Assembly (NCBI GenBank): GCA_000092065.1
Contig: CP000587.1
Source: Ostreococcus lucimarinus
Lineage: Eukaryota
Reading direction: 5' to 3' (one strand)
DNA: 64,000 bases
Position numbers and translations under genes: made by a program. Shown here piece by piece: positions 16,261 through 36,400 of this stretch (position 1 is its first letter; each line of letters opens with the position of its first letter). Under the pieces are notes generated by a model, which made no database searches, had not been told where the DNA came from, and saw only the letters and a program-made list of their open reading frames with translations.

Positions 16261-16517
16261 GTTCGCGAGCGCGTCGAGCGTGCGCGCGTGTCGTAAATTA
16301 TTTAGCGCGCGTCGAACCGCGCGGTCGCGTCGTCGCGATGTGTCGCGCGCCGCGCGCCGTCGGCCGGCGTCCAATCGGGTCGACGCGACCAACCGTCGCG
16401 CCCAAGAGTCGACAACGCCGACCGTCCCCGCGCGCCGTTCAGGACTCAACACGAGGGGGGGGGTCCGTCCGGGGGGGGTCGTCGACCGGTCTCGACCCGT
16501 CGTCCGACGTGGGGACG

Positions 16518-16625
16518 TTTTCGCCCTCGCGTGGCGACGCGACGTTTTCGCCCTCGCGTGGCGACGCGCCGTTTTCGCCCTCGCGTGGCGACGCGCCGTT
16601 TTCGCCCCCGCGTGGCGACGCGCGC
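16518..16625. repeat. 27-bp x4 tandem repeat in the shared upstream region of the AMT (minus) and CSL4 (plus) genes
   Basis: Four units of gttttcgccctcgcgtggcgacgcgac. The plus frame reads FSPSRGDA[TP] four times. It lies between the AMT ATG at 16260 and the CSL4 ATG at 16662. Confidence 0.8.
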
Positions 16626-17328: not shown

Positions 17329-18219
17329 TCATGGGGTTCCATCTGTCGTGTTCGTCGTCGGTGAGCGCGCGAACCACGATGGTTCGGGTTGCGCGCGCGG
17401 AAGGCGAACGAAAGCCGCGTCTTCGACGGCGTCGAGGGACGACGCGTCGACGGCGTCGACGTAATCCGCAAACTCAGAAAATCTATACGGTTCAGCCATC
17501 AAGTCTTCGTAATCGTCGTCGCGCTCGTCGATGAGTGGCTCGCCCACGCCGTCGTCAACGTTGTCATCATCCGCCAGTTGGCGCTTGACCCAGCGAACGA
17601 ACGGGTTGGTGTCGGAAAGTCGTCTCCAGTCTTCGTCGCGTTCGCCGCTTTCTCCGTGCGTCAGGCGCTGCACGCGCACGATGGCCGCCCGCGCGCCCTC
17701 GGCCACGATCACTTTCGCTTGCTTCGCGAACTCTCTCAACTCGTCCCTCAGCGTCATCTCTTCTTCGGAGTCCGAGTCGTCCAACTGACGGGCGCCTCGC
17801 GCGTTTCGGCCGCTCGCGCCGCGGCGTCGCTCTCCGAGCGCCCGCGCGCCGCCCAACCCGATCCCCACGTACACCAGCCCCGACACCACGATCAGCGTCA
17901 GCGCGGTAAAAATCACCAACGCCGCCCCGTCCGCGGTTCGCGCGATCGTCGGCGGCGGCGGCGACGGCGGCGGCGGCGGCGACGGCGGCGACCTCGGCGT
18001 CGGCGACGGCGGCGACCTCGGCGGGTGCGGCGCGCGCGGCGCCGGCGGCGGTCGCGGCGGTCGCGGCGGCGCCGGCGCCGGCGGCGCCTCGGGATACTCC
18101 GGATACGGCGGGTACGGCGGCGCGTCGACGGCCGCGGCGCTCGCCATCATCGTCATCGCGATCGCCGCGCGCGCGAGCGCGACGCGACGCGCGCCGACGC
18201 GTCGCGCGCGCGCGCGCAT
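17329..18219 (-). CDS. Proline-rich (HRGP-like) type-I membrane protein with an acidic cytoplasmic tail
   Basis: Signal-peptide-like N-terminus (RVALARAAIAMTMMASAAAVDA). Then a 60-aa Pro-rich block (PPAPAPPRPPRPPPAP...SPPPPT), one TM helix (ALVIFTALTLIVVSGLVYVGIGL), and a D/E-rich tail. The start is chosen at the ATG at 18219. Confidence 0.5.
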   Translation of the reverse strand: MRARARRVGARRVALARAAIAMTMMASAAAVDAPPYPPYPEYPEAPPAPAPPRPPRPPPAPRAPHPPRSPPSPTPRSPPSPPPPPSPPPPTIARTADGAALVIFTALTLIVVSGLVYVGIGLGGARALGERRRGASGRNARGARQLDDSDSEEEMTLRDELREFAKQAKVIVAEGARAAIVRVQRLTHGESGERDEDWRRLSDTNPFVRWVKRQLADDDNVDDGVGEPLIDERDDDYEDLMAEPYRFSEFADYVDAVDASSLDAVEDAAFVRLPRAQPEPSWFARSPTTNTTDGTP

Positions 18220-18331
18220 GGCGCGCTCACGCCCGTCGCATCGCGCCCGCGCGATCGGAGCGCGGAGACGTGCGCGCGCGCGGCGGTGTGCCGCACATCG
18301 CGTCGCGCATCGACACCCATCATCGATCGTC

Positions 18332-18691
18332 ATGGCGACGCTCGAAGAGTTTAACGCCGCCGCGGAGGCGATCAAGGCCGTGAAAGAGGTGCGCCGATCG
18401 CGACGACGATCGCTCGCGCCGACGCGACGACGCGACGCGACGCGACGACGCGATGACTGAGCGAAAACCGCGAACGATGGATAGACGACGAACGAAGAGA
18501 TGCTCGAGCTGTACGCGCTGTTCAAGCAAGCGAACGTCGGAGACGTGAACACCGCGCGACCGGGGATGATGGATTTTAAGGGCAAGGCGAAGTGGGACGC
18601 GTGGAAAAAGCGCGAGGGGACGTCGAAGGAGGACGCCATGACGGCGTACGTCGCGTTGGTCGCCGAGCTAAAGTCAAAGTACGGGAAGTGA
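18332..18691 (+). CDS. ACBP: Acyl-CoA-binding protein (ACBP), two exons: join(18332..18388,18485..18691)
   Basis: Exon 1 encodes [19 protein letters not shown]. The intron at 18389..18484 is 96 nt. It starts GTGCGCC, has a GATGACTGAG branch, and ends ATAG. Exon 2 encodes [68 protein letters not shown]. Joined, this gives a full-length 87-aa ACBP. Confidence 0.85.
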
Positions 18692-18794
18692 GCGCGCGTC
18701 GCGCGAACCGTCGCGATAGTGCGCTCGCGTTGTGAATGAACGACGTTCATCGTCGCGTCGCCGACGGGCGTCGCGTCGAGATTTGAATTTGACG

Positions 18795-18865
18795 TCGACG
18801 CCGACGACGCGACTCGACTCGACGCCGACGACGCGACTCGACGCCGACGACGCGACTCGACGCCG
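18795..18865. repeat. About 20-bp x3-4 tandem repeat (cgacgccgacgacgcgactcga) between the ACBP 3' end and the PP2C 5' end
   Basis: The run cgacgccgacgacgcgactcgactcgacgccgacgacgcgactcgacgccgacgacgcgactcgacgcc is directly visible. Confidence 0.7.
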
Positions 18866-19089
18866 CACTGCGCGCCGCGGCGCGACGAACCAGCGCGCGA
18901 GCGCACGCGAAGAGACGCGCACGAGTGATACCGCGCGCGCGCGTCGACGACGATCGCGCGAGCGCGGCGCGCGCGACGACCACGCGCGCGCGTTGATTCG
19001 CATTCGACGCGGCGGCGCGTTCGACCGCGCGCGCGCGCGCGGCGCGCGTCTCCGCGCTCGACGCGCGCGCGAAAGACGCGAGAGACGTC

Positions 19090-20460
19090 ATGTCGCTCGC
19101 GCGTCAGGAGAGCGGCGAAAAGGTGCGCGGCCGGGCGTCGACGCGGTTGAAGTTGAATTCAAAACCGCGAATTGAATTGAATCGAGTCTCGTCGAGTCGC
19201 GCGCGGATGGACGATGGACGACTGACGACGCGTGTCGGCGCGCAGGATGCGAATGGCGAGGAAAAACTCGAGCGCGCGTACTCGCCGAGCCTGCGAAGCG
19301 GCGAACACGGCGAGGTGGGGTGCCGGGAAGCGATGGAAGACGCGACGGTGTTGGACGATAACGTCCCGGTGGAGGGCGCGCGGGACGTCGTGGCGTTTTA
19401 CGGCGTCTTCGATGGACACGGTGGACGGGCGGCGGCGGAGTTTTTACGAGATAATCTCATGAAAAATGTGGTTGAGAATGAAAATTTTATGCGCGATCCA
19501 GAGCTGGCGCTGAAGGAGGCGTTTTTGAGGACGGATGAGGATTTCTACGACAAGTCGGGACCGGGCGAGACGAGCGGGAGCACGGGGTTAGCGGCGTGCG
19601 TCATTGGAGGTAAGTTATATATCGCCAATGCCGGGGACTGTCGCGCGGTTTTGAGCCGGAAAGGTAAGGCGATCGATTTGTCCATCGATCAAAAACCGAG
19701 TTCAGTGGGTGAGATGGAACGCATCAAGAACGCGGGCGGTTTCGTGGAGGATGGGTACGTGAACGGGTTGCTTGGCGTCTCGCGAGCGTTCGGGGATTGG
19801 CACATCGAGGGTCTCAAAGGACGTGGGGGCAAAGCTGGACCTGTGACCGTCGATCCAGAGATAGAAAAGACACGCTTGACAGAGGACGACGAGTTCTTGA
19901 TCCTCGCGTGTGATGGTTTGTGGGACGTGTTTAGCTCACAAAACGCCGTCGACGTCGCGCGGGCAAGCCTGCGTCAACACAACGATCCGACGATTACAGC
20001 GAAAGAGCTCGCGGCAGAAGCTTTGAGGAGAGACAGTTCGGATAATATTTCGGTAGTATGCGTGTGTTTGACCCCTGAAGCGCCGAAAAAGGAGACATTT
20101 ATTCGCACTTCTCCGAGCTTGTTGCGTTCGCTCTCGGTCGAAGCAATGTCTATCGTATCAAAAGCCATGACGGATGACGCCAACTCGCCCGCAGTTCCCG
20201 AAGCGTTCGCGCCAAAACGCGTGCAAAGCATTCGGAACTTTGCAGGTCACGGACGAACTGGATCCGATTCCGATTCCATAGCCTCGGATGTCGCGTCGCA
20301 GCCATCCGCCGAACAAGTTTCGGAAGTTTTAGAAAGCATCGCGGCTCTCAACGTGGTGAATAAAGTATCGACTGGGGCGCTCGGTTTAGAGCGTCTGGAT
20401 AGCGCCGATACTTCGTCGGGAGTAGCTAATGAGTTAGACACGCTCGAAGAAGAAGATTGA
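19090..20460 (+). CDS. Protein phosphatase 2C (PPM family)
   Basis: PP2C motifs are present: FYGVFDGHGG, LYIANAGDCRAVL, GLLGVSRAFGDW, LILACDGLWDV, DNISVVCVCL. The start could alternatively be the ATG at 19204 (MDDGRL). Confidence 0.88.
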   Translation: MSLARQESGEKVRGRASTRLKLNSKPRIELNRVSSSRARMDDGRLTTRVGAQDANGEEKLERAYSPSLRSGEHGEVGCREAMEDATVLDDNVPVEGARDVVAFYGVFDGHGGRAAAEFLRDNLMKNVVENENFMRDPELALKEAFLRTDEDFYDKSGPGETSGSTGLAACVIGGKLYIANAGDCRAVLSRKGKAIDLSIDQKPSSVGEMERIKNAGGFVEDGYVNGLLGVSRAFGDWHIEGLKGRGGKAGPVTVDPEIEKTRLTEDDEFLILACDGLWDVFSSQNAVDVARASLRQHNDPTITAKELAAEALRRDSSDNISVVCVCLTPEAPKKETFIRTSPSLLRSLSVEAMSIVSKAMTDDANSPAVPEAFAPKRVQSIRNFAGHGRTGSDSDSIASDVASQPSAEQVSEVLESIAALNVVNKVSTGALGLERLDSADTSSGVANELDTLEEED

Positions 20461-20531
20461 GTGCGTAAGCTCTCACCGTTTGTATTAAAACACAGTACCA
20501 CTACAACTCGACGCCGAAACCGCTGAATCGC

Positions 20532-21560
20532 TCAGCCAACGTTCGCGTTCTCCATCACGACATCGCACATTTCATAGTAGATCTCCCCTAAACGAGTCAC
20601 CACCGGCGTGGACTCTTCACCTTCGCGAAGGAGACTCACTCGCAAATTAATCACGCTATCTATGAATCGGCCTGGGCGCAAATCTCTCGAGTCCAACCCA
20701 GCCGCCGTCGCAGCGGCTCGTTCGATGCGAGGTTGGAACCCGCGCGTCGTCTTCTTCAGTTTGACTTTACCGCTCGATCTATCGAAGTCTTGATCAAGCT
20801 TATCTCGCGTTTCGTCGAACATCTGCGCCAGCAACGCGCGCCGTTGGGCCACCGTGTTAACCACGACGAGTTCCTTGATGAGCGCGGATTCCGCCTTTGG
20901 AAGCTCTGAAGGCGCGAACGAACCGGAGACGACGACGTCGCTGTACACCCCACTGGCGTCCGCAGCTTTCGACAACTGTCGAGCGGTCTCTCGCACGACG
21001 ATAACTTGGTACAGGAGGTCCCAATTAGGAATCTGTTCCTGAAGTTCGAGCTCGTCGATGAGTTGCGCGGCGGCGCGTTCAATTTTTTCCACGCTCACCC
21101 CCGGAACGTCTACATCCCCCAACGCCCGACCGCCACCCGCGTGCGCGACGCGTATGACTTCAAACCGCTCTTCATTACTCTTCAGCCTCGCCACGAGCTG
21201 CACGACCTGCATCTCATCCGTCAACGAATCCGTCACCGTCGCCAGCGTCTCCTCCTTGATTGCGTTCAACAGCGACACCAATTGCAAATCCCCGCTCGCC
21301 TCACTCGCCCGCACGTACGCCCCCAGCGCGGCCAAAAACGATCCATCCAACTCTTCAAAGTGCGATCGCACCACCGCGCGCAGCACCGCGCGCTTATCCA
21401 CCGCGCTCTCCACCGCCTCTCGCTCGTTCGCCGCGCTCGCCTCGTTCAGCACCTCCGTCGCCGCCTCCTCCAAAAAGATTCCCTCCACCGTCTCTCGTAT
21501 GATCTTATCCAGCACCTCGCTCGCCGCGTCCACGCGCTTCGCCGTGTCGTCGTCTTCCAT
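20532..21560 (-). CDS. Conserved hypothetical protein, function unknown
   Basis: A 342-aa ORF from MEDDDTAK (ATG at 21560) with coding-like composition and no low-complexity bias. I recognise no domain. The ORF-track extension to 21950 runs through the tandem-repeat region and uses a non-ATG start. Confidence 0.5.
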   Translation of the reverse strand: MEDDDTAKRVDAASEVLDKIIRETVEGIFLEEAATEVLNEASAANEREAVESAVDKRAVLRAVVRSHFEELDGSFLAALGAYVRASEASGDLQLVSLLNAIKEETLATVTDSLTDEMQVVQLVARLKSNEERFEVIRVAHAGGGRALGDVDVPGVSVEKIERAAAQLIDELELQEQIPNWDLLYQVIVVRETARQLSKAADASGVYSDVVVSGSFAPSELPKAESALIKELVVVNTVAQRRALLAQMFDETRDKLDQDFDRSSGKVKLKKTTRGFQPRIERAAATAAGLDSRDLRPGRFIDSVINLRVSLLREGEESTPVVTRLGEIYYEMCDVVMENANVG

Positions 21561-21790
21561 CGCGCGCTCGTCCTCGATCGCGTCCGCGCGCGCGTCGCGT
21601 CGCCGCCGTCGCCGCCGTCCCAGAATTCGTCGCGCGCGAATCGACGCGTCGCGTCCCGCGCGGCGCGTCCCGAGCGTCGCGCGCGGCGCGATCGCGCGCG
21701 GCGACGCCGCGGCGAGCATCGCCGGTCGTCGACGCGCGCGCGCGTCGCGGTGTCGCGCGCGCGCCGCGCGGGACGCGACGCGTCGATTCG

Positions 21791-22052
21791 CGCGCGTATA
21801 CCACCGCGAAAACGCCCATCGAGGGTGGACGCGCGTATACCACCGCGAAAACGCCCATCGAGGGTGGTCGCGCGGACGCGCGTATATTACCGCGAAAACG
21901 CCCATCGAGGTGGCGAGCGGACGCGCGTATATTACCGCGAAAACGCCCATCGAGGGTGGCGAGCGGACGCGCGTATATCACCGCGAAAACGCCCATCGAG
22001 GGTGGCGAGCGGACGCGCGTATATTACCGCGAAAACGCCCATCGAGGGTGGC
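21791..22052. repeat. Six tandem copies of a 39-47-bp minisatellite (core CGCGTATAYYACCGCGAAAACGCCCATCGAGGGTGG) in the divergent intergenic region
   Basis: Six units with the same core and short variable spacers. Each carries a GTATATTACC or GTATACCACC element. The array lies between the gene starting at 21560 (minus) and the PI4K gene starting at 22383 (plus). Confidence 0.85.
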
Positions 22053-22320
22053 GACCGGCCGATCGACCGTCGCGGTCGATCGACGCGTGTCGAGGGCGCG
22101 TCGGCGCGCAGAGCGCGACGCGCACGGCGCGCGACGGCGGCGGCGGCGCGCGCGCGGAGCGCTCGCGAGGGATCGCGATCGCGCGAGAGACGCGCGCGAG
22201 AGACGCGAGAGACGCGCGCGCGAAGCGCGCTTAGGGGGGGGAATTCGATCGACGCCGACGCGGTGCCCAGCGCGTGGGACGCGAGGACGCGGGGCGTCGC
22301 GCGCGCGAGCGCGAAGGGAT

Positions 22321-22380
22321 AGAGAGCGAGAGGGGGAGAGGGAGAGAGAGAGGGATTGATTTGTTGATTGATTGATTGGA
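22321..22380. repeat. (GA)n plus (GATT)n simple repeats immediately upstream of the PI4K start codon
   Basis: The run agagagcgagagggggagagggagagagagagggattgatttgttgattgattgattgg is directly visible. Confidence 0.75.
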
Positions 22381-22382
22381 CG

Positions 22383-24647
22383 ATGGCGCTGGATGATCCG
22401 GTGCCCGTGCTGGTGACGCCGCGACGAGAGGCGCGGAACACGCCGGCGCGCGTGGCGTTGGGTTTCGACGTCAAGGACGTCGTCAAGGATGTCGCGGTGG
22501 GCGGATCGAGCGATGCGGGATCGCCGACGACGGTCGTGACGTCGCCGCTCGCGCGCGCGGGATCGGGGAGCGGGGAATTCGGTGAGAGTTTGTTGAACGC
22601 GGACGAGTTGGTCGCGCCGAAGCACGACATTAGAATCATGCTGAAGAATGGGTCGTCGAAACCGGTGGAAGTTTTGCGATCGCAAATGGTGACGTCGTTG
22701 ACGCTGAGCATGAAACCCGAGTGGTTCACGAAACATAGACATGTGTTCTCGCGCTCGAGTCGACTGTTGCTCGGCGAGTCGTCTTTACCGGCTGATATCA
22801 GTCGGGACGAATTGTACAACAAGCTCGACGATCCGAACGAGTACCGCGAAGTGGTGATGAAACTCGCCGATTTGCAGTATATTCGAGTCAAGGCGGTCGT
22901 GAACGTAAACGAGGCGGGAGACATCGACGAGCGCGAGTATTGGTTGCCTCTGAATAGATCGCAAACCGTCGGCGAGATAAAGCGCTTGGTCGCCACCGCG
23001 GACGACTTGGAATCGTCCAAGGAAAAGTTGCTAGACAACGTGGACTTATCGACGGGAATGAGCATGATTTTGCGTGGTAAAGAGTTGAATAATGATTCCA
23101 CGATCGAAAGCCAAGGTTTGGAGCACAACGCGTTGATACATTTGTTCGTCAAGCGCGACGCAAACGTCAACGTGTCGATGCGCGGAAACAGCGAGTTGGA
23201 GATTCGTCTCAACGTCAATAAGACTGCGGAGACGTTTCGCGATCAACTTCACATGGTCAAGCCTGGTTCAGTGGATAGCGCGCAGTACGCCCATCGTCGA
23301 AGTGGTAGCGTTTCCATCTACCCAGGACGCGGCTTGCGAAACGGTCCCTTGAGCTCGTACGGCGGACGCGAGGGTACATCGCTCGAGTTGCGTCCGCACG
23401 TGCCGCGAATATCGCCGCGACGAAGTTCGTACACGAATTCTATGGCGATTCCATCACCACATTCCGCGTCGTTTGGTGCCCACTCCTTCGGTGGCCGCAG
23501 TATGCCTATTGCTTCTTCTTGGGGAGCAAGAGCCGCGCTGAATTCTCATCGGCAGAGCGGTAGCGTGAACGCTGACTCCATATCGCCACCAAGCGCGCCG
23601 ATAACGCCTTTCGGTAGCCCTGGTACGCTTTCAGCGTCGTTTGACATGGCGCGAGAAGGTTTACTCATGGGTAACGCCCCTCAGCTTTCGCAAGGAGGCA
23701 ACGGTGGCGCATACTTTTTGAAGGGCATCGATGGCAAACCCGCCGCCGTGTTCAAACCGGCGGACGAAGAACCGTTCGCTCCGAACAATCCGAGAGGACA
23801 CCGAAGTAGCCATAATGGCGAGGGTATGCGCAAAGGGACGAAGGCGGGCGAAGGTGCCACGCGTGAAGTTGCGGCGTACTTGCTCGATCACGGTGGTTTC
23901 GCCGGCGTTCCCGCGACGTCTCTCGTCAACTTGACGGATGGGACCGAAGAGGATGATGGAAAGCTCGGCTCGCTTCAGGAATACGTCGAAAACACCGCTG
24001 AGGCAGAGGAGTATGGCCCAAGCATGTTTCCTACGGAAGAAGTGCACAAGATTACCGTTCTCGATATTCGCTTGGCGAACACCGACCGCAACGCTGGAAA
24101 CATTTTATGCCGTAGCGACGAGAATGGCAACATCGTGGCGTTGATTCCAATCGACCACGGGTACGCACTTCCGCACACACTCGAAGACGTCTGTTTCGAG
24201 TGGGAATTCTGGCCCCAAGCATCAATTCCATACAGCGACGACGTCAAGGAGTACGTCGCTATGCTCGACGCCGACGCCGACGTCGAGTACTTGCGAGAAA
24301 ACGACATCGAGCTTCAAGCCTCCTCAGAACGCGTTCTTCGCGTGTGTACTTTGGTTCTGAAAGAAGCTGTACGCCGCAACTTCACCGCAGCGAACATAGC
24401 CTCCATGCTCAGTCGAAAGATGTCCAACAGGAAGTCGGACATTGAAAAGATTGCCGCGCAAGCGGCGTCGACGGCCATCGCCGAGGGGCGTTCCGAACGT
24501 GGTCTTTTGGTGCATAAATCGCCAGAAAACGGTTCGTTTTGGAACGACTTGGCTGACGATGAAATCGCCGAAACGCGTTTCATCGCTCAATTCACCAATA
24601 TCCTCAACGATTTCCTCGACAATTACGAACCGGAAGCCGACGGATGA
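22383..24647 (+). CDS. Type-II phosphatidylinositol 4-kinase (plant PI4K-gamma-like) with N-terminal ubiquitin-like domain(s)
   Basis: UBL-like segments occur at the N-terminus (MILRGKELNNDSTIESQGLEHNALIHLFVKR). The PI4KII catalytic core follows (GGNGGAYFLKGIDGKPAAVFKPADEEPFAPNNPRG; DRNAGNILC; IPIDHGYALP). The true ATG is at 22383. The track start at 22368 is TTG. Confidence 0.8.
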   Translation: MALDDPVPVLVTPRREARNTPARVALGFDVKDVVKDVAVGGSSDAGSPTTVVTSPLARAGSGSGEFGESLLNADELVAPKHDIRIMLKNGSSKPVEVLRSQMVTSLTLSMKPEWFTKHRHVFSRSSRLLLGESSLPADISRDELYNKLDDPNEYREVVMKLADLQYIRVKAVVNVNEAGDIDEREYWLPLNRSQTVGEIKRLVATADDLESSKEKLLDNVDLSTGMSMILRGKELNNDSTIESQGLEHNALIHLFVKRDANVNVSMRGNSELEIRLNVNKTAETFRDQLHMVKPGSVDSAQYAHRRSGSVSIYPGRGLRNGPLSSYGGREGTSLELRPHVPRISPRRSSYTNSMAIPSPHSASFGAHSFGGRSMPIASSWGARAALNSHRQSGSVNADSISPPSAPITPFGSPGTLSASFDMAREGLLMGNAPQLSQGGNGGAYFLKGIDGKPAAVFKPADEEPFAPNNPRGHRSSHNGEGMRKGTKAGEGATREVAAYLLDHGGFAGVPATSLVNLTDGTEEDDGKLGSLQEYVENTAEAEEYGPSMFPTEEVHKITVLDIRLANTDRNAGNILCRSDENGNIVALIPIDHGYALPHTLEDVCFEWEFWPQASIPYSDDVKEYVAMLDADADVEYLRENDIELQASSERVLRVCTLVLKEAVRRNFTAANIASMLSRKMSNRKSDIEKIAAQAASTAIAEGRSERGLLVHKSPENGSFWNDLADDEIAETRFIAQFTNILNDFLDNYEPEADG

Positions 24648-24910
24648 TTCCGCGAGCCCGAGGCGCCGCCTCCTCGCGCAGCGTCCGTCGCGCGCCGACG
24701 TTCGTTGTACAAACAATCGAATCGCGCACAGCGTGCAGACATTAAAACATTTGTTCATCGTACTTGTAACACATACCCACCTATATTTTATCCAACGTCT
24801 CGCCTCCGGCTTTCGCGCGTTGCCGCGCGACGCGCTATCCAAATCCAGCCGCCTTTCGCGATCGACAAGATGTCTCCACATCGCGCCGTCGTCGGCCCGT
24901 GCCTCTCGCG

Positions 24911-26950
24911 ATGGCGCCCAAGTCGTTCGAAGACATGTTCGCGTGCTCGCCCGCGTCGCTGACCAAGCTCAGGGCGTCGCACGCACCGCACGCGTCGCCG
25001 GCGGCGTCGCACGCGCGTGACTACTCGCCCATCGCGTTCCCGTCGATGCGTCGAGACGACGAAGACGAACGCGCGCGCGCGGTCGCGGGCGCGTTCGATG
25101 ACATGTTCGCGTGTTCGCCGGCGTCGCTGAAGAAGATGCGAGGATCGGCAGTGGAGCGGGCGTCGGGAGGGGTCGGGACGCCGACGGGGACGCCGACGCG
25201 GCCGACGGCGAGTCGCGAGGATTTAGCGTCGGCGTTCGGCGATATGTTTTTAGCGTCTCCGGCATCGTTGAAGAAGATGCGCGCCACGAATACGGCGGTG
25301 ACGGGAACGAAGGCGCGCGAGCGTGGGGATGGATTCGGATCGCCCTTGCGTTACGACGGCGACGCGAACGCGGCGGAGCCGAAGAAGGAAGCGGTGAGTT
25401 TCAGTGAAATGTTCGCAAGTTCTCCCTCGGATTTGGCCAAGATGCGACGGTCGGACGTCGGTGGTGCCGCGCGCGGATCTAATGTGGAGGTTGCTAAGGT
25501 GGCAGTGGACGCGCGAGAGCGCACGAATGCGTTCGCAGGCATGTTTGCCAGTTCACCGGCGGATTTGGCCAAGATGCGCGGGAGGTCGCAGTCGTCGATT
25601 TCTTACGCCGAAGGGCGGCACGGCGCGAGCGATCGATTTCAGGTTATCGCGCCTGATTTTCAAGCCATGTTTTCTAGTTCGCCGAGCGATTTGAAAAACT
25701 TGAGAAGCGCGTCGTCGTCGTCGAGGAAGAGGCTCGGCGACGAAGCTGATAGATTTGAGGTGACGTACTTGCTCCTCGCCCCTTGCGAAGCGGCAGCTCG
25801 AGAGAAGGTTTTAGAAATTTGTTTGGAACAGACTGTGGAGTTACCAGCGTCGCTCGTGCCGGAAGGGACTTGGATTCGAGAGCATGTCGTCGGTCGATTG
25901 GAGTCTTTGACGAAGCCGAAGACCGGACCGCACGCCCGTCGTCCGGACGCGTGGAACGCGATTGTCAGCTACCACGCCGACACTGCGGGTGGGGAGTTAA
26001 CACAGCTTGTGAACGTCATCTTCGGCAACACGAGCATGAAGGAGAACGTGATGGTCGTCGATATCGAACTACCTCGCACCATGCTGCGCGAGTACCCTGG
26101 GCCACGATTCGGCGTTCACGGTCTTCGTCGTTTGCTCCGCGTACCCGAAGGGCCTCTGGTGATGACGGCACTCAAACCAATGGGATTGTCTAGCCAAGAA
26201 TTAGCAGAAATTGCGTACGGTTTCGCCAAGGGAGGGATCGACATCATCAAGGATGACCACGGACTCGCAGACCAGCCGTACAGCCCTTACGACGAGCGAG
26301 TTCGAATGTGCGCTGCCGCTGTAGCGCGCGCCAACGCAGAGACCGGTCGAAACGTTCTCTACGCCCCGTGTATCAACGCTCCCGCGCATTTAATCATTTC
26401 TCGAGCGCACGCTGCGAGACAGGCGGGCGCGGGCGCGGTGTTGATGATTCCCGGCATTACGGGTTTGGACGCCATGCGTGAGCTCGCTGCAGACCCGAGC
26501 TTCAACCTCCCCATCATCGCTCATCCCGCGTTGCTCGGGTGCATGCTAGGCGGAGGGAGCACAAATAGAATAGCGGGCTTTAGTCATGAAGTCCTTCTCG
26601 GGTTATTACCGCGGTTGGCCGGTGCGGACGCCACCGTCTTCCCGTCCTTTGGCGGGCGGTTTGGATTCAGCGTGGACGAATGCAAGGCCATCAACGTCGG
26701 GTGCACGCGGGTGATGGGAGATTTGCCCGCCATTTTACCCTCTCCGGGCGGTGGCATGACGCTCGAGCGCATCGCTCAGATGCGCGAGGTGTACGGCCCC
26801 GATTTATTACTTCTCATCGGCGGTTCTTTGTACTCGCACTCGGAAAATCTCGTCGACGGCGCTCGTCACTTCATGAAACTCGCCGGACGCAAAGAGCTCT
26901 ACGGTCCGCTCGAGTGCCCGCACGACGGTTACCGCGGACATACGATGTGA
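24911..26950 (+). CDS. RuBisCO large-subunit-like protein (form IV RLP) with a 260-aa N-terminal extension made of six motif repeats
   Basis: The C-terminal 400 aa align to the RuBisCO large-subunit fold (GGIDIIKDDHGLADQPY; LPAILPSPGGGMTLERIAQMREVYGPDLLLLIGGSLYSH resembles the RbcL block [35 protein letters not shown]). The sequence diverges from bona fide RbcL in ways typical of RLPs. The N-terminus repeats F-x-[DEA]-M-F-[AL]-[CS]-S-P-[AS]-[SD]-L-x-K-[ML]-R six times. Confidence 0.75.
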   Translation: MAPKSFEDMFACSPASLTKLRASHAPHASPAASHARDYSPIAFPSMRRDDEDERARAVAGAFDDMFACSPASLKKMRGSAVERASGGVGTPTGTPTRPTASREDLASAFGDMFLASPASLKKMRATNTAVTGTKARERGDGFGSPLRYDGDANAAEPKKEAVSFSEMFASSPSDLAKMRRSDVGGAARGSNVEVAKVAVDARERTNAFAGMFASSPADLAKMRGRSQSSISYAEGRHGASDRFQVIAPDFQAMFSSSPSDLKNLRSASSSSRKRLGDEADRFEVTYLLLAPCEAAAREKVLEICLEQTVELPASLVPEGTWIREHVVGRLESLTKPKTGPHARRPDAWNAIVSYHADTAGGELTQLVNVIFGNTSMKENVMVVDIELPRTMLREYPGPRFGVHGLRRLLRVPEGPLVMTALKPMGLSSQELAEIAYGFAKGGIDIIKDDHGLADQPYSPYDERVRMCAAAVARANAETGRNVLYAPCINAPAHLIISRAHAARQAGAGAVLMIPGITGLDAMRELAADPSFNLPIIAHPALLGCMLGGGSTNRIAGFSHEVLLGLLPRLAGADATVFPSFGGRFGFSVDECKAINVGCTRVMGDLPAILPSPGGGMTLERIAQMREVYGPDLLLLIGGSLYSHSENLVDGARHFMKLAGRKELYGPLECPHDGYRGHTM

Positions 26951-26984
26951 AGTTAAAGTATCGTGTAATAACAAAGGTATAATA

Positions 26985-27536
26985 CTACCGCCACGCGTCT
27001 TCAGATACGATGCCGCGTTTCGCCGCCCACCCCACCGCCGGCGACACCAGCGTCGCCAGCATGTGCACCCCGAGCAAAGGCTGAAACAAAAACGGCCACA
27101 AAAATAACCACGTCCCCAAAAACGGTTCATCGTACGACAGCCCGTTCCCTTTGCTCAACCGCACCCCGACGCCGACGACGAGCCACGCCAGGATGAACAA
27201 GATGACGAAAAAGTCATACAACAAAAACGTATCGATCGCCTCCTTCACGCCGTCCATCGCCCCCGGCGCGGCTTTCGCGCTCGACGACGCTTCCTCCGCG
27301 CTCGTCTCGCGCGCCTTGGCCTCGGCGTAGCGCGCTATGTCGGCCTCGAGCTCGCTCGACACGTCGAAATCCCTGCGCTTGGTGATGTCATCGTCGTCGC
27401 CGTTCTCTCTCGCGCGCGGCGCGTTTCGCGCGCGTCGGCGCCCCGGCGCGGCGCCCCGGCGCGCGGTGCGTCGCGCGGGCGTCGCGCGGGCGCGCGCGGA
27501 CGCCGCGACGGCCGTCGAGGACGCGATTGAATTCAT
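26985..27536 (-). CDS. Hypothetical membrane protein (transit-peptide-like N-terminus, two TM helices), possibly thylakoid
   Basis: A 183-aa ORF from MNSIASS (ATG at 27536). It has an acidic stretch, then hydrophobic helices (FLLYDFFVILFILAWLVVGVGV; LFLWPFLFQPLLGVHMLATLV). I recognise no family. Confidence 0.45.
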   Translation of the reverse strand: MNSIASSTAVAASARARATPARRTARRGAAPGRRRARNAPRARENGDDDDITKRRDFDVSSELEADIARYAEAKARETSAEEASSSAKAAPGAMDGVKEAIDTFLLYDFFVILFILAWLVVGVGVRLSKGNGLSYDEPFLGTWLFLWPFLFQPLLGVHMLATLVSPAVGWAAKRGIVSEDAWR

Positions 27537-27627
27537 CGTCGGGGCGTTATCGCGTCGCGAAGTGACGCGCGGCGCCGACACAACGCGACGCGTCGGCGCG
27601 GCGCCCGCGGCGCGCGAGGCGGCGGCG

Positions 27628-29007
27628 ATGGCGCGCGCGGTGACGACGGCGCGCGCGCGAGCGACGGCGCGCGCGCGCGCGGTGACGGTGCGACGAAAAG
27701 ATGTCGATTTCGCGACGGCGTCGACGTCGGGACGACGACGCGCGCGGCGCGCGGCGACGACGACGCGCGCGACGGCGACGACGCGCGGCGCGACGCGCGA
27801 TGGGATCGATGGTCGCGCGCGCGCGCGCGCGGCGTCGATCGAGAGACGGGGTGAACGCGCGGCGCGAACGCGCGCGGCGGACCCGACGTTCGCCGACGCG
27901 CTGGGGGTGACGGCGGCGACGTGGGAACAAGTCGAAGGCGGCCTGTTCGGCGCGTCGTTGTTCCCGTACCTTGGATTTCTGTATTTTTTGGCCAAGCCGG
28001 AGGCGAGGTGCCCGCGCGGGACGCTTTTCGGATTCAAATTCTTGCTCGCGTTTGTGTTCGGGACGATTCCGTTCGCGATTTACGCAAAGGTCGAGTACGA
28101 CGAGATATTGGCGAACGTCGACGTGCTGCACGGGGTGGCGGAGTCGCTCCTGACGATGACGAATGTTTTCATCGTGCTCGGGTTTCGGCAAGGCCTGCGC
28201 GACGCGAGCGAGGGGGGAGATGGAGACGGCAGGCGGCGGAGGAAGACGAGTTTGGGCGACATCGGCGCGGCGTTGTTTTGCACGCTCGCGACGTCGAGCG
28301 CTATTTTCGGCGCGACGGAGGCGTTTGCGGGAACGGAGATCGCTGAAACGGCAGCGATTTGGGATTCCACGTGGCCGCACGTCGAGCCTGCGAACGCGTT
28401 GAGCTTGCCCACGTGGGTGATTCACGTGTCGAGCTTGGTCGAGTGGTTGATCGCGATGGGATTGGCGTGGGAATACGCAGAGGTGACCAAGAGACCGGCG
28501 TGGAAGGGCTTGACACTCGGGATGATCCCGTGTCACGCCTCCGGCATCGCGGCGTGTACGTTTCACTTGTTCTACAACGCCCCGGCGCTAAACAGCGTCG
28601 TGGCGATGCAAGCGCTCTTGACCGTCGTCGGCAACACCACGTGCGCGCTCGCGTCGTATCGCATCGCCAAGGAGGGCGAACGAATGTTGGCGTCGCCGCC
28701 GACGACGACGGAGCCGGAGACGGACGTCAACGACGAAGTGGAAATCATCGAGATCTCCATCGGTAACGAGTCTTTGAAGGGTTGGGAAGATTTAAGCGCC
28801 GCGTGGGCCGCGGATTCCGACGCCGTGCTCTTGCTCAAGCTCGCCTTAGTCTCCGCCGTCGCCTCCGCAGGCGTCAAGTACGGCTCGCTCCTCGTCGATT
28901 TCCCGTTCGAACCAAACCTTTGGGTGGCGTATTCCATCATATTTGTCCCGACGCTGTTGAATTGCGCCAAGTGGAAGCAATTGAGCGACGAAGGCGCCGC
29001 CTTGTAA
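27628..29007 (+). CDS. Chloroplast-type membrane protein with DUF3593-like and DUF2499-like halves
   Basis: Transit-peptide-like N-terminus. Conserved blocks include FPYLGFLYFLAKP, PTWVIHVSSLVEWLIAMGLAWEY, and GMIPCHASGIAACTFHLFYN. These are reminiscent of a cyanobacterial/plant DUF3593+DUF2499 pair. I assign the family from memory only. Start is at the ATG at 27628. Confidence 0.55.
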   Translation: MARAVTTARARATARARAVTVRRKDVDFATASTSGRRRARRAATTTRATATTRGATRDGIDGRARARAASIERRGERAARTRAADPTFADALGVTAATWEQVEGGLFGASLFPYLGFLYFLAKPEARCPRGTLFGFKFLLAFVFGTIPFAIYAKVEYDEILANVDVLHGVAESLLTMTNVFIVLGFRQGLRDASEGGDGDGRRRRKTSLGDIGAALFCTLATSSAIFGATEAFAGTEIAETAAIWDSTWPHVEPANALSLPTWVIHVSSLVEWLIAMGLAWEYAEVTKRPAWKGLTLGMIPCHASGIAACTFHLFYNAPALNSVVAMQALLTVVGNTTCALASYRIAKEGERMLASPPTTTEPETDVNDEVEIIEISIGNESLKGWEDLSAAWAADSDAVLLLKLALVSAVASAGVKYGSLLVDFPFEPNLWVAYSIIFVPTLLNCAKWKQLSDEGAAL

Positions 29008-33423: not shown

Positions 33424-36400
33424 TCAAAGGCCGCCGGCGATGATTCTTGGTAGGATTGCGGTGGCGACACCGAGGGCGTAGTACGCCCAGACCGGAATGT
33501 CGCGCACGTCGACGACGGTGTCGCCCTTGGCGCGACCGTCCATCATGGCTTGCATCTTTTCGCCGTCGTCTGCGGCGGCGAGTTGCTTTTCGACCTTGCT
33601 GGAGATTTCGTCGATGGTAGACTCGTCGATCTCCATGGACGTGGCGTATCGGCGCTTGATGCGGTCCAAATCATCCGCAATCTTGCGCGATTCCTCGAGA
33701 ACCTTGCGTTCTTCGCCGTAAAGCGCCAAGAAATCGGCGAGCTTTTTCTCCGTGGCGCCCAACTTTTCGCGAACGATGATGAGTTGCTTTTCGTTAGTCT
33801 CGATTTGTGACTTGTACGTGGCCACGTCCTTGGTTTCGCTGCGAAGTCTCTGGATTTCCGCTTCGGCCACGTCCGCTCTCTTCTCGGCGCTAGAGACGTC
33901 AACAAGCGCTTGACGCGAGAGCTCGTCGATTTCGGATTCGTGCTTTTGCTGCATGGAGGCATACTTGGATTCGAAATCCGCCGTCAAGCGCGCGATCTCC
34001 GAAGCTCGTTGATTCTGTGCGTTTGCGAGCGCTTTGGTAAGGTCCGCCTGCAATTGAGCGAGCTCATCCTTGAGCTTTTGCATTTCAGCAGCCTTGGAAG
34101 CGTCGACGCTGGAGAGCTTATTTGCCAGCACAGACTTCTCCTCCGCGATGGCGGCGAGCGACTTCTCGAGCTCGGCGACGCGCGCTTGAGCAGCGTCCCT
34201 GGCGGTGGCGAGCGTTGCCAGCTCCTTGGGATCGACGGCGTTCTTCGTGAGAGTCGCGACTTCCTTCTCCAGTTCGCTCGCGCGAGCCAAGGCGGCGTCT
34301 CGAGCGCTGGCGAGCGTTGCCAGCTCCTTGGGATCGACGGCGTTCTTCGTGAGAGTCGCGACTTCCTTCTCCAGTTCGCTCGCGCGAGCCAAGGCGGCGT
34401 CTCGAGCGCTGGCGAGCGCTGCCAGCTCCTTGGGATCGACGGCGTTCTTCGTGAGAGTCGCGACTTCCTTCTCCAGTTCGCTCGCGCGAGCCAAGGCCGC
34501 GTCTCGCGCGTTCGTGAGAGAGGCCACTTCCTGCTCGAGCTTTTCGAGAGCTGCCTTGGCCGAAGCCGCGTCGTTGGAAGCGGACTTCGCGTCAGCGCTC
34601 GCCTTCGTCAGCGCAGCGTTAGTGTCTGCGATCGCCTTCTCGAGCTTGGCCTTTTCAGCTTCGAGCGCGGTCACCTTACCGGCGCTCGTCGTGTCGACCT
34701 TGGCCAATGCTTGCGAGAGCTCGGACTTGTGTTGCGCAACAATACTGCTCAACTCGTCGGCGTGAGCCTTCTTCAAATCTGCAGTCGCTTGTTTGACGAG
34801 CTTTTCGTATTCGGCGACCTCAGCTTCGAAGGCGGCACGAGCCTTGGCGGACTCATCCAAGAACATTTGCTCCAACTTCTTTCGTTGATCCTCGGCTTGG
34901 GCGATGACTTGACTTCGCGCTCGCTCGAGCGCCGTCTTCGAAGACGCTTCGAGTTCCGCACGCTGCGCTTCAGCATCCGTCAACGACTTGGCGAGTTTAT
35001 CCTTTTCGCTTTGAAGTTGCGCTTCGAGGGCGCTAATTTGCGCTTTGAGGTCCGACGCGTCGCTGGCATCCTTCAACGCCGCCACATGATCCTTGTTCAA
35101 TTTATCAATCTCCGCGGCGTGATCCTGTTGCAACTTGTTCAAAGTGGATTCATACGACGCCTTGGAGCTCGTCAACGAATTAGTGAGCTCGTCGACTTGT
35201 TGTTGCAACCCGGGGATGAGAGCCGCTTTGGTGAGAGCATCGGCGAGTTCTTTTTCAGCTTGTGCGGCGTTCTGCTTCTCGGCATCCGCGAGTTTCGCCT
35301 TGAGTGCGTCAATTTCTGCTTGCGCTTTCGTCAACTTGGCTCCGTACTCCGCTTCCACTTGTTCCTTCGCCTTTTGTAATGCGCTCTTTTGCTCAGTCTC
35401 GAGCTTGGAAATCTTCGAAAGCAAAACCGCATCGGCACTCTCTGCGGCTTCCTTTGCCGCGGTGAGATCTCTAGCGTTTTGAGCCTTGAGCGCGGCGACG
35501 TCCGCCTCGTATTGAGCCTTGGCGTCTGCGAGTGCTTTGCTAGCTGCCGCAACATCCGCATCGGTACGTTTGCGAAGCTCTTCGATTTGAGCGGCTAATT
35601 TGGCGTCAAGTTCAGCCTTTTGCTCCGCGAGTCGCGCTGAAATTTGGGCGTCAACATCGGCGAGCGATTGAACAGCTGAAGCCTTCGCCTTTTCGGCATC
35701 AGCCTTGGCCAAGGACAAATTCTGATCATGTTCTGCTTCAAGAGCGGCGATGCGAGCGCTGAGTGCGTCGCGCTCCGACGAGACAGCGGCCACGCCTTCC
35801 TTCGCTTGCGCATCGAACGCGCTTCTGAGCTCGTGCATCTCATCAGCGAAGTGCTTCTCCAACTCGGCAACCTTGTTTGCCGCCGCACTCTTCGCCTCAC
35901 TGAGCTGCGATTCCAATTCCTTGATTTCCTCTTCAGCCTCCTTGAGTTTGGCGTTGAGCGTCGCGATTTCGGCTTCAAATTGTGCCTTGGCATCGGTGCC
36001 CGCCGCGGCCGCCTTCAGTTCAAGAGCCTTAATTTCAGCCTCAAGCTTTTGAACCGTCGACTTGTACTCGCTCTCCGTCGAGCTAAACTTGGCTGTCAGG
36101 GCGTCGAGCTCCTTCTTGGCCGCACTCCCATCTTCAGCCTGGATAGCCGCGGCTTGGATCGCCTCGGCAGTGCGCGACTTTTCCGCCGCTAGTTGGCGCG
36201 CAGCGTCTTCACGCGCCGCAGCAAGTTGGTCTTCAAGGGATTTGGTCGTCTTAGCGAGGTCTGTCTCGAGTTGCGCCATCTTCGCCTTGATGGCTTCAGC
36301 TTGCGCAGCTTCGGCAGACTTCAGCTTGGACTGCGATTCAGCGATTGCCTTCGCGTGATCAGCGTTGATTCTTTCGATCTGCACCTTATGCGCGCGTTCG

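What the first reader, a model, noticed from the sequence alone, without database searches (positions are those of the whole stretch)
21791..22052. Six-copy TATA-containing minisatellite between two divergently transcribed genes
The 820-bp spacer between the gene starting at 21560 (minus) and the PI4K gene starting at 22383 (plus) is unusually long for this compact locus. It contains six tandem 39-47-bp units with an invariant core CGCGTATA(TT/CC)ACCGCGAAAACGCCCATCGAGGGTGG. Each unit carries a TATA-like GTATATTA element in an otherwise 65% GC context. It could be a reiterated core-promoter or TF-binding module, an origin-like element, or a satellite. (GA)n and (GATT)n tracts lie just downstream, before the PI4K ATG.
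Basis: seen in the sequence. Interest (0 to 1): 0.5.

Follow-up and report, generated by a model that had tools for sequence, protein, structure and literature searches.

The report
Hypervariable promoter-region minisatellite in Ostreococcus
This is a real tandem repeat of a 39-47-base unit between two back-to-back genes of the marine picoalga Ostreococcus lucimarinus; wild genomes carry 3 to 15 copies, only a 14-16-base core is conserved and the TATA-like part is not, so it is an ordinary hypervariable minisatellite that may carry a reiterated protein-binding site.

Summary
The six-unit array at 21791-22058 is real and far beyond chance. The window is Ostreococcus lucimarinus. The same spacer was recovered from about 40 independent metagenome or culture contigs. 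Its flanks are nearly identical, but the array holds 3-15 units in about 15 different unit orders, so it is a classic VNTR. Unit lengths (39/45/46/47) are mostly not multiples of three, so it is non-coding. Other Ostreococcus species keep the gene order but lack the array and its core.

A sister lineage (about 89% identical in the non-repeat spacer) has a different array at the same place. It shares only the 16-nt core CGCGAAAACGCCCATC. Its linker is about 50% different, and GTATAT there reads GTACAC. Within the window's lineage, CGAAAACGCCCATC is invariant in 114 units, while the two bases after TATA occur in three common forms. No unit matches TATAWAWR.

So the TATA/core-promoter reading is not supported. 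"Satellite" is supported. A reiterated binding site (the core) remains possible but untested.

The minus gene probably starts at 21719, not 21560, which puts the array 72 nt upstream of it. Whether the core occurs elsewhere in the genome could not be tested. The spacer also carries a palindrome, a 228-nt deletion allele, an optional 829-nt segment and a rearrangement junction.

The parts
20532..21719 (-). Left-hand gene (uncharacterised protein, no Pfam family). It is annotated as 342 aa from ATG 21560 (XP_001418906.1). The real start is probably ATG 21719, giving 395 aa with an R/A/S-rich N-terminal extension.
   Evidence: Translation. Exact match to the O. lucimarinus CCE9901 protein. 395-aa gene calls in other assemblies. 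Met-21560 is replaced in lineage B and in sister species while ATG 21719 is kept. Pfam and PDB sequence searches gave nothing significant.
21631..21796 (.). Imperfect palindrome with perfect 37-nt arms (21631-21667 and 21760-21796), centre at 21713.5. It encloses the probable start codon at 21719, and its right arm abuts or overlaps the first repeat unit.
   Evidence: the repeat finder I1, 37 nt, 100% complementary. The fold of 21600-21830 gives -168.8 kcal/mol, z = -4.7. Self-alignment. Absent from lineage B.
21791..22058 (+). The minisatellite: 6 head-to-tail units. Phased on GCGTATA, they start at 21794, 21833, 21880, 21925, 21971 and 22017, with lengths 39, 47, 45, 46 and 46; the last unit runs into unique flank.
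21805..21820 (+). Conserved 16-nt core CGCGAAAACGCCCATC, copy 1. Copies 2-6 lie at 21844-21859, 21891-21906, 21936-21951, 21982-21997 and 22028-22043.
   Evidence: Exact matches. The core is identical in the lineage-B array. Its last 14 nt are invariant in 114 units.
22263..22271 (+). GGTGCCCAG block. It is followed by a GA-rich tract, and this arrangement is shared with the upstream regions of PI4K in other Ostreococcus species. It is a candidate core-promoter or TSS region for PI4K (inference).
   Evidence: Read by eye in the orthologous spacers and in lineage B. The MAFFT alignment of distant species is poor.
22321..22378 (+). (AG)16 and (GATT)6 microsatellites just before the PI4K ATG.
   Evidence: TRF. 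The GATT tract is replaced by GATC in lineage B.
22383..24647 (+). Right-hand gene: type II phosphatidylinositol 4-kinase, 754 aa.
   Evidence: Translation. PF00454 in the gene tables. Homologues named PI4K type 2 / gamma.

Best explanation
The array is a young, lineage-restricted, non-coding hypervariable minisatellite (VNTR). It lies in the shared upstream region of a divergent gene pair of Ostreococcus lucimarinus, 72 nt upstream of the probable start codon of the left gene and 325 nt upstream of the PI4K start codon.

Shown:
- It is real and tandem, and it was found at only one locus in all the sequence available here.
- Copy number (3-15) and the order of variant units differ among wild genomes, while the flanks are almost identical.
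- It is absent from other Ostreococcus species.
- Its unit consists of a conserved 14-16-nt core (CG)CGAAAACGCCCATC plus a fast-changing linker, and the linker contains the TATA-like bases.

Inferred:
- It grows and shrinks by replication slippage and/or unequal exchange between units. The units are homogenised within a lineage (concerted evolution).
- The TATA-like bases are incidental and do not act as a TATA box.
- Most copy-number variation is probably neutral or nearly so. The conservation of the core in a fast-turning-over array suggests the core is a sequence-specific protein-binding site. I put about one chance in three on this. If so, the array would be a homotypic cluster of sites whose number varies between strains.
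For: - Reality and uniqueness: (6 copies, 0 expected). The core was not found elsewhere in the window or in relatives' loci at up to 3 mismatches and not in viral contigs.
- Organism.
- VNTR: 17 gap-free spanning contigs show about 15 different unit maps with 3-15 units. The first unit is nearly always CC39, CC45 or CC46 and the last is of the 42-43-nt type. Flanks are 99% or more identical. Many short-read contigs end inside the array.
- Non-coding: most unit lengths (46 and 47 nt) are not multiples of 3. The minus strand has stop codons in TT units. No Rfam match reached a gathering score. The unit fold is unremarkable, z from -1.75 to +0.44.
- Young and lineage-restricted: synteny is kept in four other Ostreococcus lineages (PI4K 72-80% identical), but there is no array and no significant match to the unit; 2-28 of 200 shuffles score as well.
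- Core versus linker: lineage B (three independent assemblies) has 46-47-nt units with an identical 16-nt core, but 16/30 ungapped linker mismatches (Fisher p = 2e-4), against 88-90% identity in the non-repeat spacer.
- Within lineage A the last 14 nt of the core are invariant in 114 of 114 units, whereas the YY pair and the linker are highly polymorphic.
- TATA: no TATAWAWR in the array.
- Background: in O. lucimarinus, tandem repeats with units longer than 6 bp are denser than microsatellites (PMC3152781).
Against: - No transcription data were available, so the position of either TSS relative to the units is unknown.
- The whole genome could not be scanned, so dispersed copies elsewhere are not excluded.
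- Short-read assemblies can collapse or mis-order repeats. Three long-read-style assemblies show irregular units that may be consensus errors, so individual copy numbers are uncertain even though the polymorphism as a whole is not.
- The identity of the 16-nt core between lineages is not in itself unusual at 89% background identity (0.89^16 is about 0.15). What is unusual is the contrast with the linker, and the core boundaries were chosen after seeing the data.
- The two array types may come from amplification of different ancestral units rather than from linker turnover.
Confidence: 0.7

Rival explanations
1. Copy-number-tunable regulatory module. The conserved core is the binding site of a transcription factor, the array is a homotypic site cluster serving one or both divergent genes, and strain-to-strain copy number sets expression level. 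This overlaps the best explanation but claims function and selection.
For: The core is identical between two otherwise diverged array types, and its last 14 nt are invariant in 114 units. Both lineages keep 4 or more cores at about 46-nt spacing. The array sits 72 nt upstream of the left gene's probable ATG. In the 228-nt deletion allele the array directly abuts the left gene's ATG at 21560, so any promoter for that allele must lie in or beyond the array.
Against: The core is absent upstream of the orthologous genes in four other Ostreococcus lineages. No known site family fits: the E2F-like octamer TTTCGCGG is at chance frequency in the window (11 observed, 11.6 expected), and it is changed to TTTCGCGT in one lineage-B contig. 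GCGAAAACG outside the two arrays occurs 6 times against about 4.7 expected. Alleles with 3 units and with 15 units coexist, so any dosage constraint is loose.
Confidence: 0.3
2. Reiterated TATA-box core promoters. Each unit would be a mini core promoter able to start transcription.
For: All six units contain the tetranucleotide TATA in a GC-rich context. GCGTATAY is over-represented in the window only because of the array: 7 observed, 6 of them in the array, against 1.7 expected.
Against: There is no TATAWAWR match in any unit. The bases after TATA are the most variable of the unit. Lineage B has GTACAC instead. The gene-proximal units are of the TATACC type. In the direction of the left gene each unit would add an upstream ATG (CCCATC read on the minus strand), which is unfavourable for a 5' UTR.
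Confidence: 0.05
3. Recombination-prone or fragile site. The array and the adjacent palindrome mark a hotspot of breakage and exchange, and the core could act as a recombination signal. This is compatible with the VNTR reading.
For: Five kinds of structural variation fall within about 500 nt. (1) The VNTR itself. (2) A 228-nt deletion bounded by the 8-nt repeat TCGCGCGC, seen in two independent assemblies. (3) An 829/590/406-nt optional segment inside the array. (4) A junction to a different neighbour (GatB) at 21704/21705, 9 nt from the palindrome centre, seen in three assemblies. (5) A contig that is 3-7% diverged from the window left of the array but at most 0.4% diverged to the right of it.
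Against: The mosaic contig could be a chimeric metagenome assembly. The GatB junction could be a paralogous copy rather than an allele. No recombination-rate data exist. One locus cannot show a hotspot. Meiotic recombination in this species is known only indirectly.
Confidence: 0.2
4. Part of a dispersed repeat or a mobile-element remnant.
For: Some strains carry an extra 829-nt segment after the first core, flanked on both sides by core-containing sequence. The whole genome could not be searched.
Against: The core is found only at this locus in the 64-kb window and in all fetched loci. It has no match in viral contigs. The 829-nt segment has a single shared left junction and three different right ends, which fits one old event followed by deletions rather than repeated insertion. 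No terminal inverted repeats or target-site duplications, ORF, tRNA or Rfam match were found.
Confidence: 0.07
5. Coding or uORF repeat: an N-terminal repeat of the left gene. A 472-aa ORF runs from ATG 21950, inside the array, into the gene.
For: The ORF 20532..21950 is open and in frame. The plus strand is open in all three frames across the array.
Against: Units of 46 and 47 nt shift the frame at each unit. Copy-number alleles would change the frame. TT-type units give TAA on the minus strand. Open frames are expected in DNA with 65-80% GC. The translated array found no protein among 5.8 billion sequences.
Confidence: 0.02

Closest known systems
Hypervariable minisatellites / VNTRs of vertebrates (Jeffreys-type loci; promoter-proximal examples such as the INS and HRAS1 VNTRs) - from my own knowledge
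   Same: Tandem GC-rich units of tens of bases. Large copy-number polymorphism between individuals. Interspersed variant units that give allele 'maps'. End units more stable than the interior. A short core shared by otherwise different units. A location upstream of genes.
   Different: The organism is a 13-Mb picoalga. The core sequence is unrelated to the vertebrate GGGCAGGANG-type core. No mutation-rate, meiotic or expression data exist here.
Unstable tandem repeats in yeast promoters (Vinces et al. 2009, 'Unstable tandem repeats in promoters confer transcriptional evolvability'; cited from my own knowledge, and the title is present in 150 held papers)
   Same: A repeat inside a promoter or intergenic region whose unit number varies between natural strains and could tune expression.
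   Different: As I recall, the yeast repeats are mostly short and AT-rich and act through nucleosome exclusion. This one has 46-nt GC-rich units, and no effect on expression has been shown.
Tandem-repeat landscape of O. lucimarinus (Mayer et al. 2010, PMC3152781)
   Same: That survey reports that in this genome repeats with units longer than 6 bp are denser than microsatellites and that CpG-rich repeats are exceptionally common. The present array, and the 27-nt array at 16516-16623, fit that picture.
   Different: The survey is genome-wide statistics on one reference genome. It does not address population polymorphism, this locus or the conserved core.
Homotypic clusters of binding sites / reiterated enhancer repeats (for example the 60/81-bp repeats of the Xenopus rDNA spacer) - from my own knowledge
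   Same: One short sequence repeated in the same orientation at regular spacing upstream of a promoter.
   Different: Binding of any factor to the core is untested, and the element is not conserved beyond the O. lucimarinus complex.

Membership tests
Minisatellite / VNTR | Head-to-tail tandem units of about 10-100 bp | tested here: met
   6 units of 39-47 nt, TRF 95% matches.
Minisatellite / VNTR | Copy number differs between individuals of the species while the flanks are the same | tested here: met
   3-15 units in about 15 structures among 17 gap-free spanning contigs, with flanks 99% or more identical. Caveat: most are short-read metagenome assemblies.
Minisatellite / VNTR | Variant units interspersed along the array (allele maps) | tested here: met
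   CC/TC/TT types and 39/45/46/47-nt units occur in different orders; the end units are stable.
Minisatellite / VNTR | Non-coding | tested here: met
   Most unit lengths (46 and 47 nt) are not multiples of 3; stop codons on the minus strand; no protein or Rfam match.
TATA-box core promoter | Match to TATAWAWR | tested here: not met
   No match in the array; one match in the whole 64 kb, as expected by chance.
TATA-box core promoter | TATA bases conserved among alleles and related lineages | tested here: not met
   TATA(CC/TC/TT) occur 44/51/19 times within the lineage; the sister lineage has GTACAC.
TATA-box core promoter | Located about 25-35 nt upstream of a mapped transcription start | not testable with these tools
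   No 5'-end or RNA data were available.
Dispersed repeat / transposable element | Copies at several unrelated loci | tested here: inconclusive
   A single locus in the 64-kb window, in all fetched loci and in viral contigs.
Dispersed repeat / transposable element | Terminal inverted repeats, target-site duplication or a transposase | tested here: not met
   None at the array ends. The nearby 37-nt inverted repeat has no target duplication, and its left arm lies in the probable coding N-terminus.
E2F-type site cluster (consensus recalled from memory: TTTSSCGC / WTTSSCSS) | Sequence match that is more than chance, kept in relatives | tested here: not met
   Each unit has TTTCGCGG on the minus strand, but the octamer occurs 11 times against 11.6 expected. 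It becomes TTTCGCGT in L174.
Plant snRNA promoter (USE RTCCCACATCG plus TATA; recalled from memory) | USE consensus, and an snRNA gene downstream | tested here: not met
   The core reads CGCCCATCG and lacks the CA of the USE. No snRNA or other Rfam family reached threshold in 21000-23000.
Replication origin | Origin activity or origin-recognition binding | not testable with these tools
   There is only a GC-skew sign change, which is what divergent genes give.

The most novel reading that the evidence does not exclude
The 14-16-nt core (CG)CGAAAACGCCCATC is a functional sequence-specific site. It is either a transcription-factor site whose copy number acts as a natural expression rheostat for the divergent gene pair, or a recombination or breakage signal. 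Selection or drive keeps it reiterated while the rest of the unit turns over. Together with the adjacent palindrome it would make this spacer a structural-variation hotspot in wild Ostreococcus populations.
Probability: 0.25. Interest if true: 0.55.

Novelty: new member of a known kind. Interest (0 to 1): 0.3.

Why it matters
The finding mostly shows that the eye-catching 'TATA' is incidental and that the feature is an ordinary VNTR.

It still has three uses:
1. The array is a highly informative strain marker for a globally abundant picoalga. Its unit maps can be read directly from metagenomes.
2. The conserved core is a concrete, testable candidate cis-element in a group where very few promoter elements are known.
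3. The cluster of structural variants around it is a defined place to look for recombination or fragility in an organism whose sexual cycle has never been seen.

It also corrects the likely start codon of the neighbouring gene.

Tried and rejected
1. Metagenome-wide scan with the 16-mer core.
2. Translating the array in both strands and searching 5.8 billion proteins for spurious ORFs that would reveal other loci. There were no hits, so this was uninformative.
3. Viral contigs with the type-A 26-mer, the type-B 28-mer and a 52-mer of the optional segment. All gave 0 matches. The phage collection also gave no match.
4. Rfam on 21000-23000 and on the optional segment. Only sub-threshold chance hits appeared: GlsR26 at 24.7 bits against a gathering score of 100, and mir-9456 at 22.5 against 80. 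No tRNAs were found.
5. Hairpin or slippage-prone structure of the unit. The folds are no better than shuffles.
6. E2F-like site. Not enriched.
7. A link between this array and the 27-nt array at 16516-16623 through the shared GCGAAAACG. Outside the two arrays the 9-mer is at chance level, and the second array is absent from lineage B, so there is no evidence of a common element.
8. A progenitor of the unit in sister species. The best local matches are within the shuffle range.
9. Coding-repeat reading. Rejected on frame arguments.
10. Function of the left gene. Pfam and PDB sequence searches found nothing significant.
11. Literature. No paper holds the core sequence, and none on Ostreococcus minisatellites deals with this locus.

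Full report
**Observation**

The region 21791-22058 holds one tandem array. TRF reports period 46, 5.0 copies, 95% matches and a score of 413; the rows with periods 92 and 138 describe the same array. The repeat finder places six copies with start-to-start spacings of 39, 47, 45, 46 and 46 nt. The 26-mer ACCGCGAAAACGCCCATCGAGGGTGG occurs six times and nowhere else in the 64 kb, against 0 expected in 100 dinucleotide-preserving shuffles. The (AG)n and (GATT)n tracts before the PI4K ATG are present.

Some details need correcting. Unit 3 lacks one G (GAGGTGG). Unit 5 reads TATATC. Only three units carry GTATATTA. The array is the least GC-rich part (64.6%) of a 72% GC, CpG-rich spacer. It is the strongest non-coding tandem array in the window.

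**Organism and genes**

The left gene's 342-aa product is identical to XP_001418906.1 of Ostreococcus lucimarinus CCE9901. The right gene is a type II PI 4-kinase.

The annotated Met at 21560 is probably not the start of the left gene:
- In a closely related lineage the codon is changed (CAT to CCT on the plus strand).
- In other Ostreococcus species the reading frame also continues upstream into an R/A/S-rich extension.
- The ATG at 21719 is conserved, and other gene callers use it to give 395 aa.

The array therefore begins 72 nt upstream of that start codon and ends 325 nt upstream of the PI4K start codon. Even at 663 nt the spacer is long for the locus, where the median neighbouring gap is 136 nt.

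**Population evidence**

Exact-protein look-ups returned this locus from Tara and other marine metagenomes and from three JGI assemblies with contigs of about 760 kb. The flanks are 99% or more identical to the window, but the array differs:
- It holds 3, 4, 5, 6, 7, 8, 9, 12 or 15 units.
- About 15 different orders of variant units occur among 17 gap-free spanning contigs.
- The gene-proximal first unit is almost always of the TATACC type.
- The last unit is always the 42-43-nt type that runs into unique sequence.
- Eleven further contigs simply end inside the array.

This is the behaviour of a VNTR. There are caveats. Short-read assemblies can collapse repeats, and three long-read-style assemblies show irregular units that may be consensus errors. 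Single copy numbers are therefore soft, but the polymorphism as a whole is not.

**Not coding, not an RNA**

- Most unit lengths (46 and 47 nt) are not multiples of three. The reading frame therefore rotates from unit to unit and would change with copy number.
- TT-type units give TAA on the minus strand.
- The 472-aa ORF that starts inside the array is the kind of open frame expected in 65-80% GC DNA.
- Rfam finds nothing near threshold.
- Single-strand folds of the units are no better than shuffles.

**Comparative evidence**

Four other Ostreococcus lineages (PI4K 72-80% identical) keep the order PP2C / left gene / PI4K / RuBisCO-like protein. Their spacers hold neither the array nor the core, and the unit has no better-than-chance match in them. 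They carry other, species-specific repeats. The only shared block I could see is GGTGCC(C/T)AG followed by a GA-rich tract, 70-120 nt before the PI4K ATG. This is a candidate PI4K core-promoter region (inference).

A much closer 'lineage B' was more informative. Its left-gene protein is 92-97% identical, its non-repeat spacer is 88-90% identical, and it was recovered in three independent assemblies. It has an array at the same position with units of the same length (46-47 nt) but a different sequence: CGCGAAAACGCCCATC(G/A)ATCGCGACGTCCGACGCGCCGTACACGAC.
- The 16-nt core is identical to the window's.
- The 30-nt linker differs at 16 positions without gaps, or about 12 of 31 columns with gaps (Fisher p = 2e-4 for the ungapped comparison).
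- The TATA-like GTATAT reads GTACAC.

Within the window's own lineage the picture is the same. CGAAAACGCCCATC is invariant in 114 of 114 internal units from 27 short-read contigs. The two bases after TATA occur as TC, CC or TT (51, 44, 19), and the linker has at least 15 forms.

The last unit of both array types is clearly orthologous: CCCATCG(A/C)GGGT(C)GGCGACCGACCGATC. The ancestor therefore probably already had more than one core, and the two lineages amplified different units.

One caution applies. At 89% background identity a 16-nt identical block is not rare (about 0.15). The signal is the contrast with the linker, and the core boundaries were chosen after the fact.

**What it is and how it works**

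The shown facts fit an ordinary hypervariable minisatellite that arose within the O. lucimarinus complex. I infer that it changes by replication slippage and unequal exchange, with homogenisation of units within lineages.

The TATA reading fails on three tests:
- No unit matches TATAWAWR, and the 64 kb has only one match in total.
- The TATA-adjacent bases are the most polymorphic in the unit.
- They are not kept in lineage B.

The core is the only constrained-looking part. A reiterated protein-binding site is a reasonable but untested reading, at roughly one chance in three. I could not assign it to a known site family. The E2F-like octamer on the minus strand is at chance frequency and is altered in one lineage-B contig. 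The resemblance to the plant snRNA USE is imperfect and no snRNA gene follows.

Read towards the left gene, each core contains an ATG. A transcript of the left gene that started beyond the array would therefore carry 3-15 upstream ATGs. This argues that the left gene's start site lies between the array and 21719 in ordinary alleles (inference).

**Structural instability around the array**

Four further structural variants lie within a few hundred bases. They were noticed in passing and only partly followed.
- An imperfect palindrome with perfect 37-nt arms (21631-21667 / 21760-21796, centre 21713.5) encloses the probable start codon and touches the first unit. It is absent from lineage B.
- Two independent assemblies lack 228 nt (21566-21793) between two copies of TCGCGCGC. 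This leaves the array directly against ATG 21560.
- Three assemblies are identical to the window from 18050 up to 21704 and then continue into a GatB gene instead of the array and PI4K.
- Three assemblies, from both lineages, carry an extra 829-, about 590- or 406-nt unique segment after the first core. They share one left junction and have three different right ends. The segment has no ORF, tRNA, Rfam or viral match.

In addition, one 640-kb contig is 3-7% diverged from the window to the left of the array and at most 0.4% diverged to the right. This is either a recombinant haplotype or an assembly chimera.

Together these suggest, but do not prove, that the spacer is a fragile or recombination-prone site.

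**Limits**

- My single metagenome scan was wasted on a 16-mer that finds chance matches.
- The protein-space trick found nothing.
- No RNA or 5'-end data could be reached.

**Verdict**

This is a real feature and a new example of a known kind, a promoter-region VNTR. It occurs in a genome already reported to be rich in such repeats (PMC3152781). Interest is low to moderate. The most useful leads are the conserved core, the value of the array as a strain marker, and the cluster of structural variants.

Noticed in passing
window 21631-21796: Imperfect palindrome with perfect 37-nt arms (21631-21667 / 21760-21796), centre 21713.5. It encloses the probable start codon (21719) of the left gene and folds as one long hairpin (z = -4.7). 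It is present in the window's lineage and absent from lineage B (L175, L176).
   Followed up: partly
L015, L017, L020 (window 18050-21704 equivalent): Three independent assemblies are 99.3-99.8% identical to the window up to 21704. They then diverge into a different neighbour (GatB, glycine decarboxylase P) instead of the array and PI4K. The junction is 9 nt from the palindrome centre and removes ATG 21719. This is either a rearranged allele or a paralogous copy; it was not resolved.
   Followed up: partly
L008/L013 and L014 (window 21566-21793 missing): A 228-nt (in-frame) deletion allele bounded by the 8-nt repeat TCGCGCGC. It removes the palindrome and the probable N-terminal extension, and it leaves the array 5 nt from ATG 21560.
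   Followed up: partly
L157 1799-2627; L154 2050-2451; L173 3505-3993: An optional unique segment of 829 nt (406 nt in L154, about 590 nt in L173) lies inside the array directly after the first core (junction CCCATCGAGGGT|CAAA). It is present in both lineages at 92-97% identity. No ORF, tRNA, Rfam or viral match was found, so its nature is unknown.
   Followed up: partly
L156 / L175 versus window 19397-27647: There is a sharp change in divergence at the spacer: 3-7% mismatches to the left of the array and 0-0.4% to the right, with the switch at about window 22107-22135. This is either a recombinant haplotype or a chimeric long-read metagenome contig.
   Followed up: partly
window 16516-16623: A second minisatellite, 27 nt x 4 (CGTTTTCGCCCTCGCGTGGCGACGCGC, 97% matches). 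It lies in the divergent spacer between an ammonium transporter gene (minus strand) and the CSL4/EXOSC1 gene (plus strand). Other contigs have 3 or 4 units, and it is absent from lineage B. It shares only GCGAAAACG (reverse strand) with the main array.
   Followed up: partly
window 21560 versus 21719: The reference annotation of the left gene (342 aa, XP_001418906.1) probably starts at the wrong Met. The conserved start is 159 nt further upstream, giving 395 aa.
   Followed up: yes
L150 3380-3690; L141 3560-3575; L144 3560-3600: The orthologous spacers of other Ostreococcus species each carry their own unrelated repeats: a GGTC/ATTC-based array of about 300 nt in L150, GTTCC x3 in L141, and GCGTTGAATC-type repeats in L144. 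The spacer is therefore repeat-prone across the genus.
   Followed up: no
window 34202-34510: A 102-nt x 3 tandem repeat at 98% identity (TRF score 590). It is probably inside a coding region. Not examined.
   Followed up: no
whole window: Only one strict TATAWAWR match (42545-42552) occurs in 64 kb, which holds roughly 30-40 genes. This is chance level, so canonical TATA boxes seem rare in this genome region.
   Followed up: no
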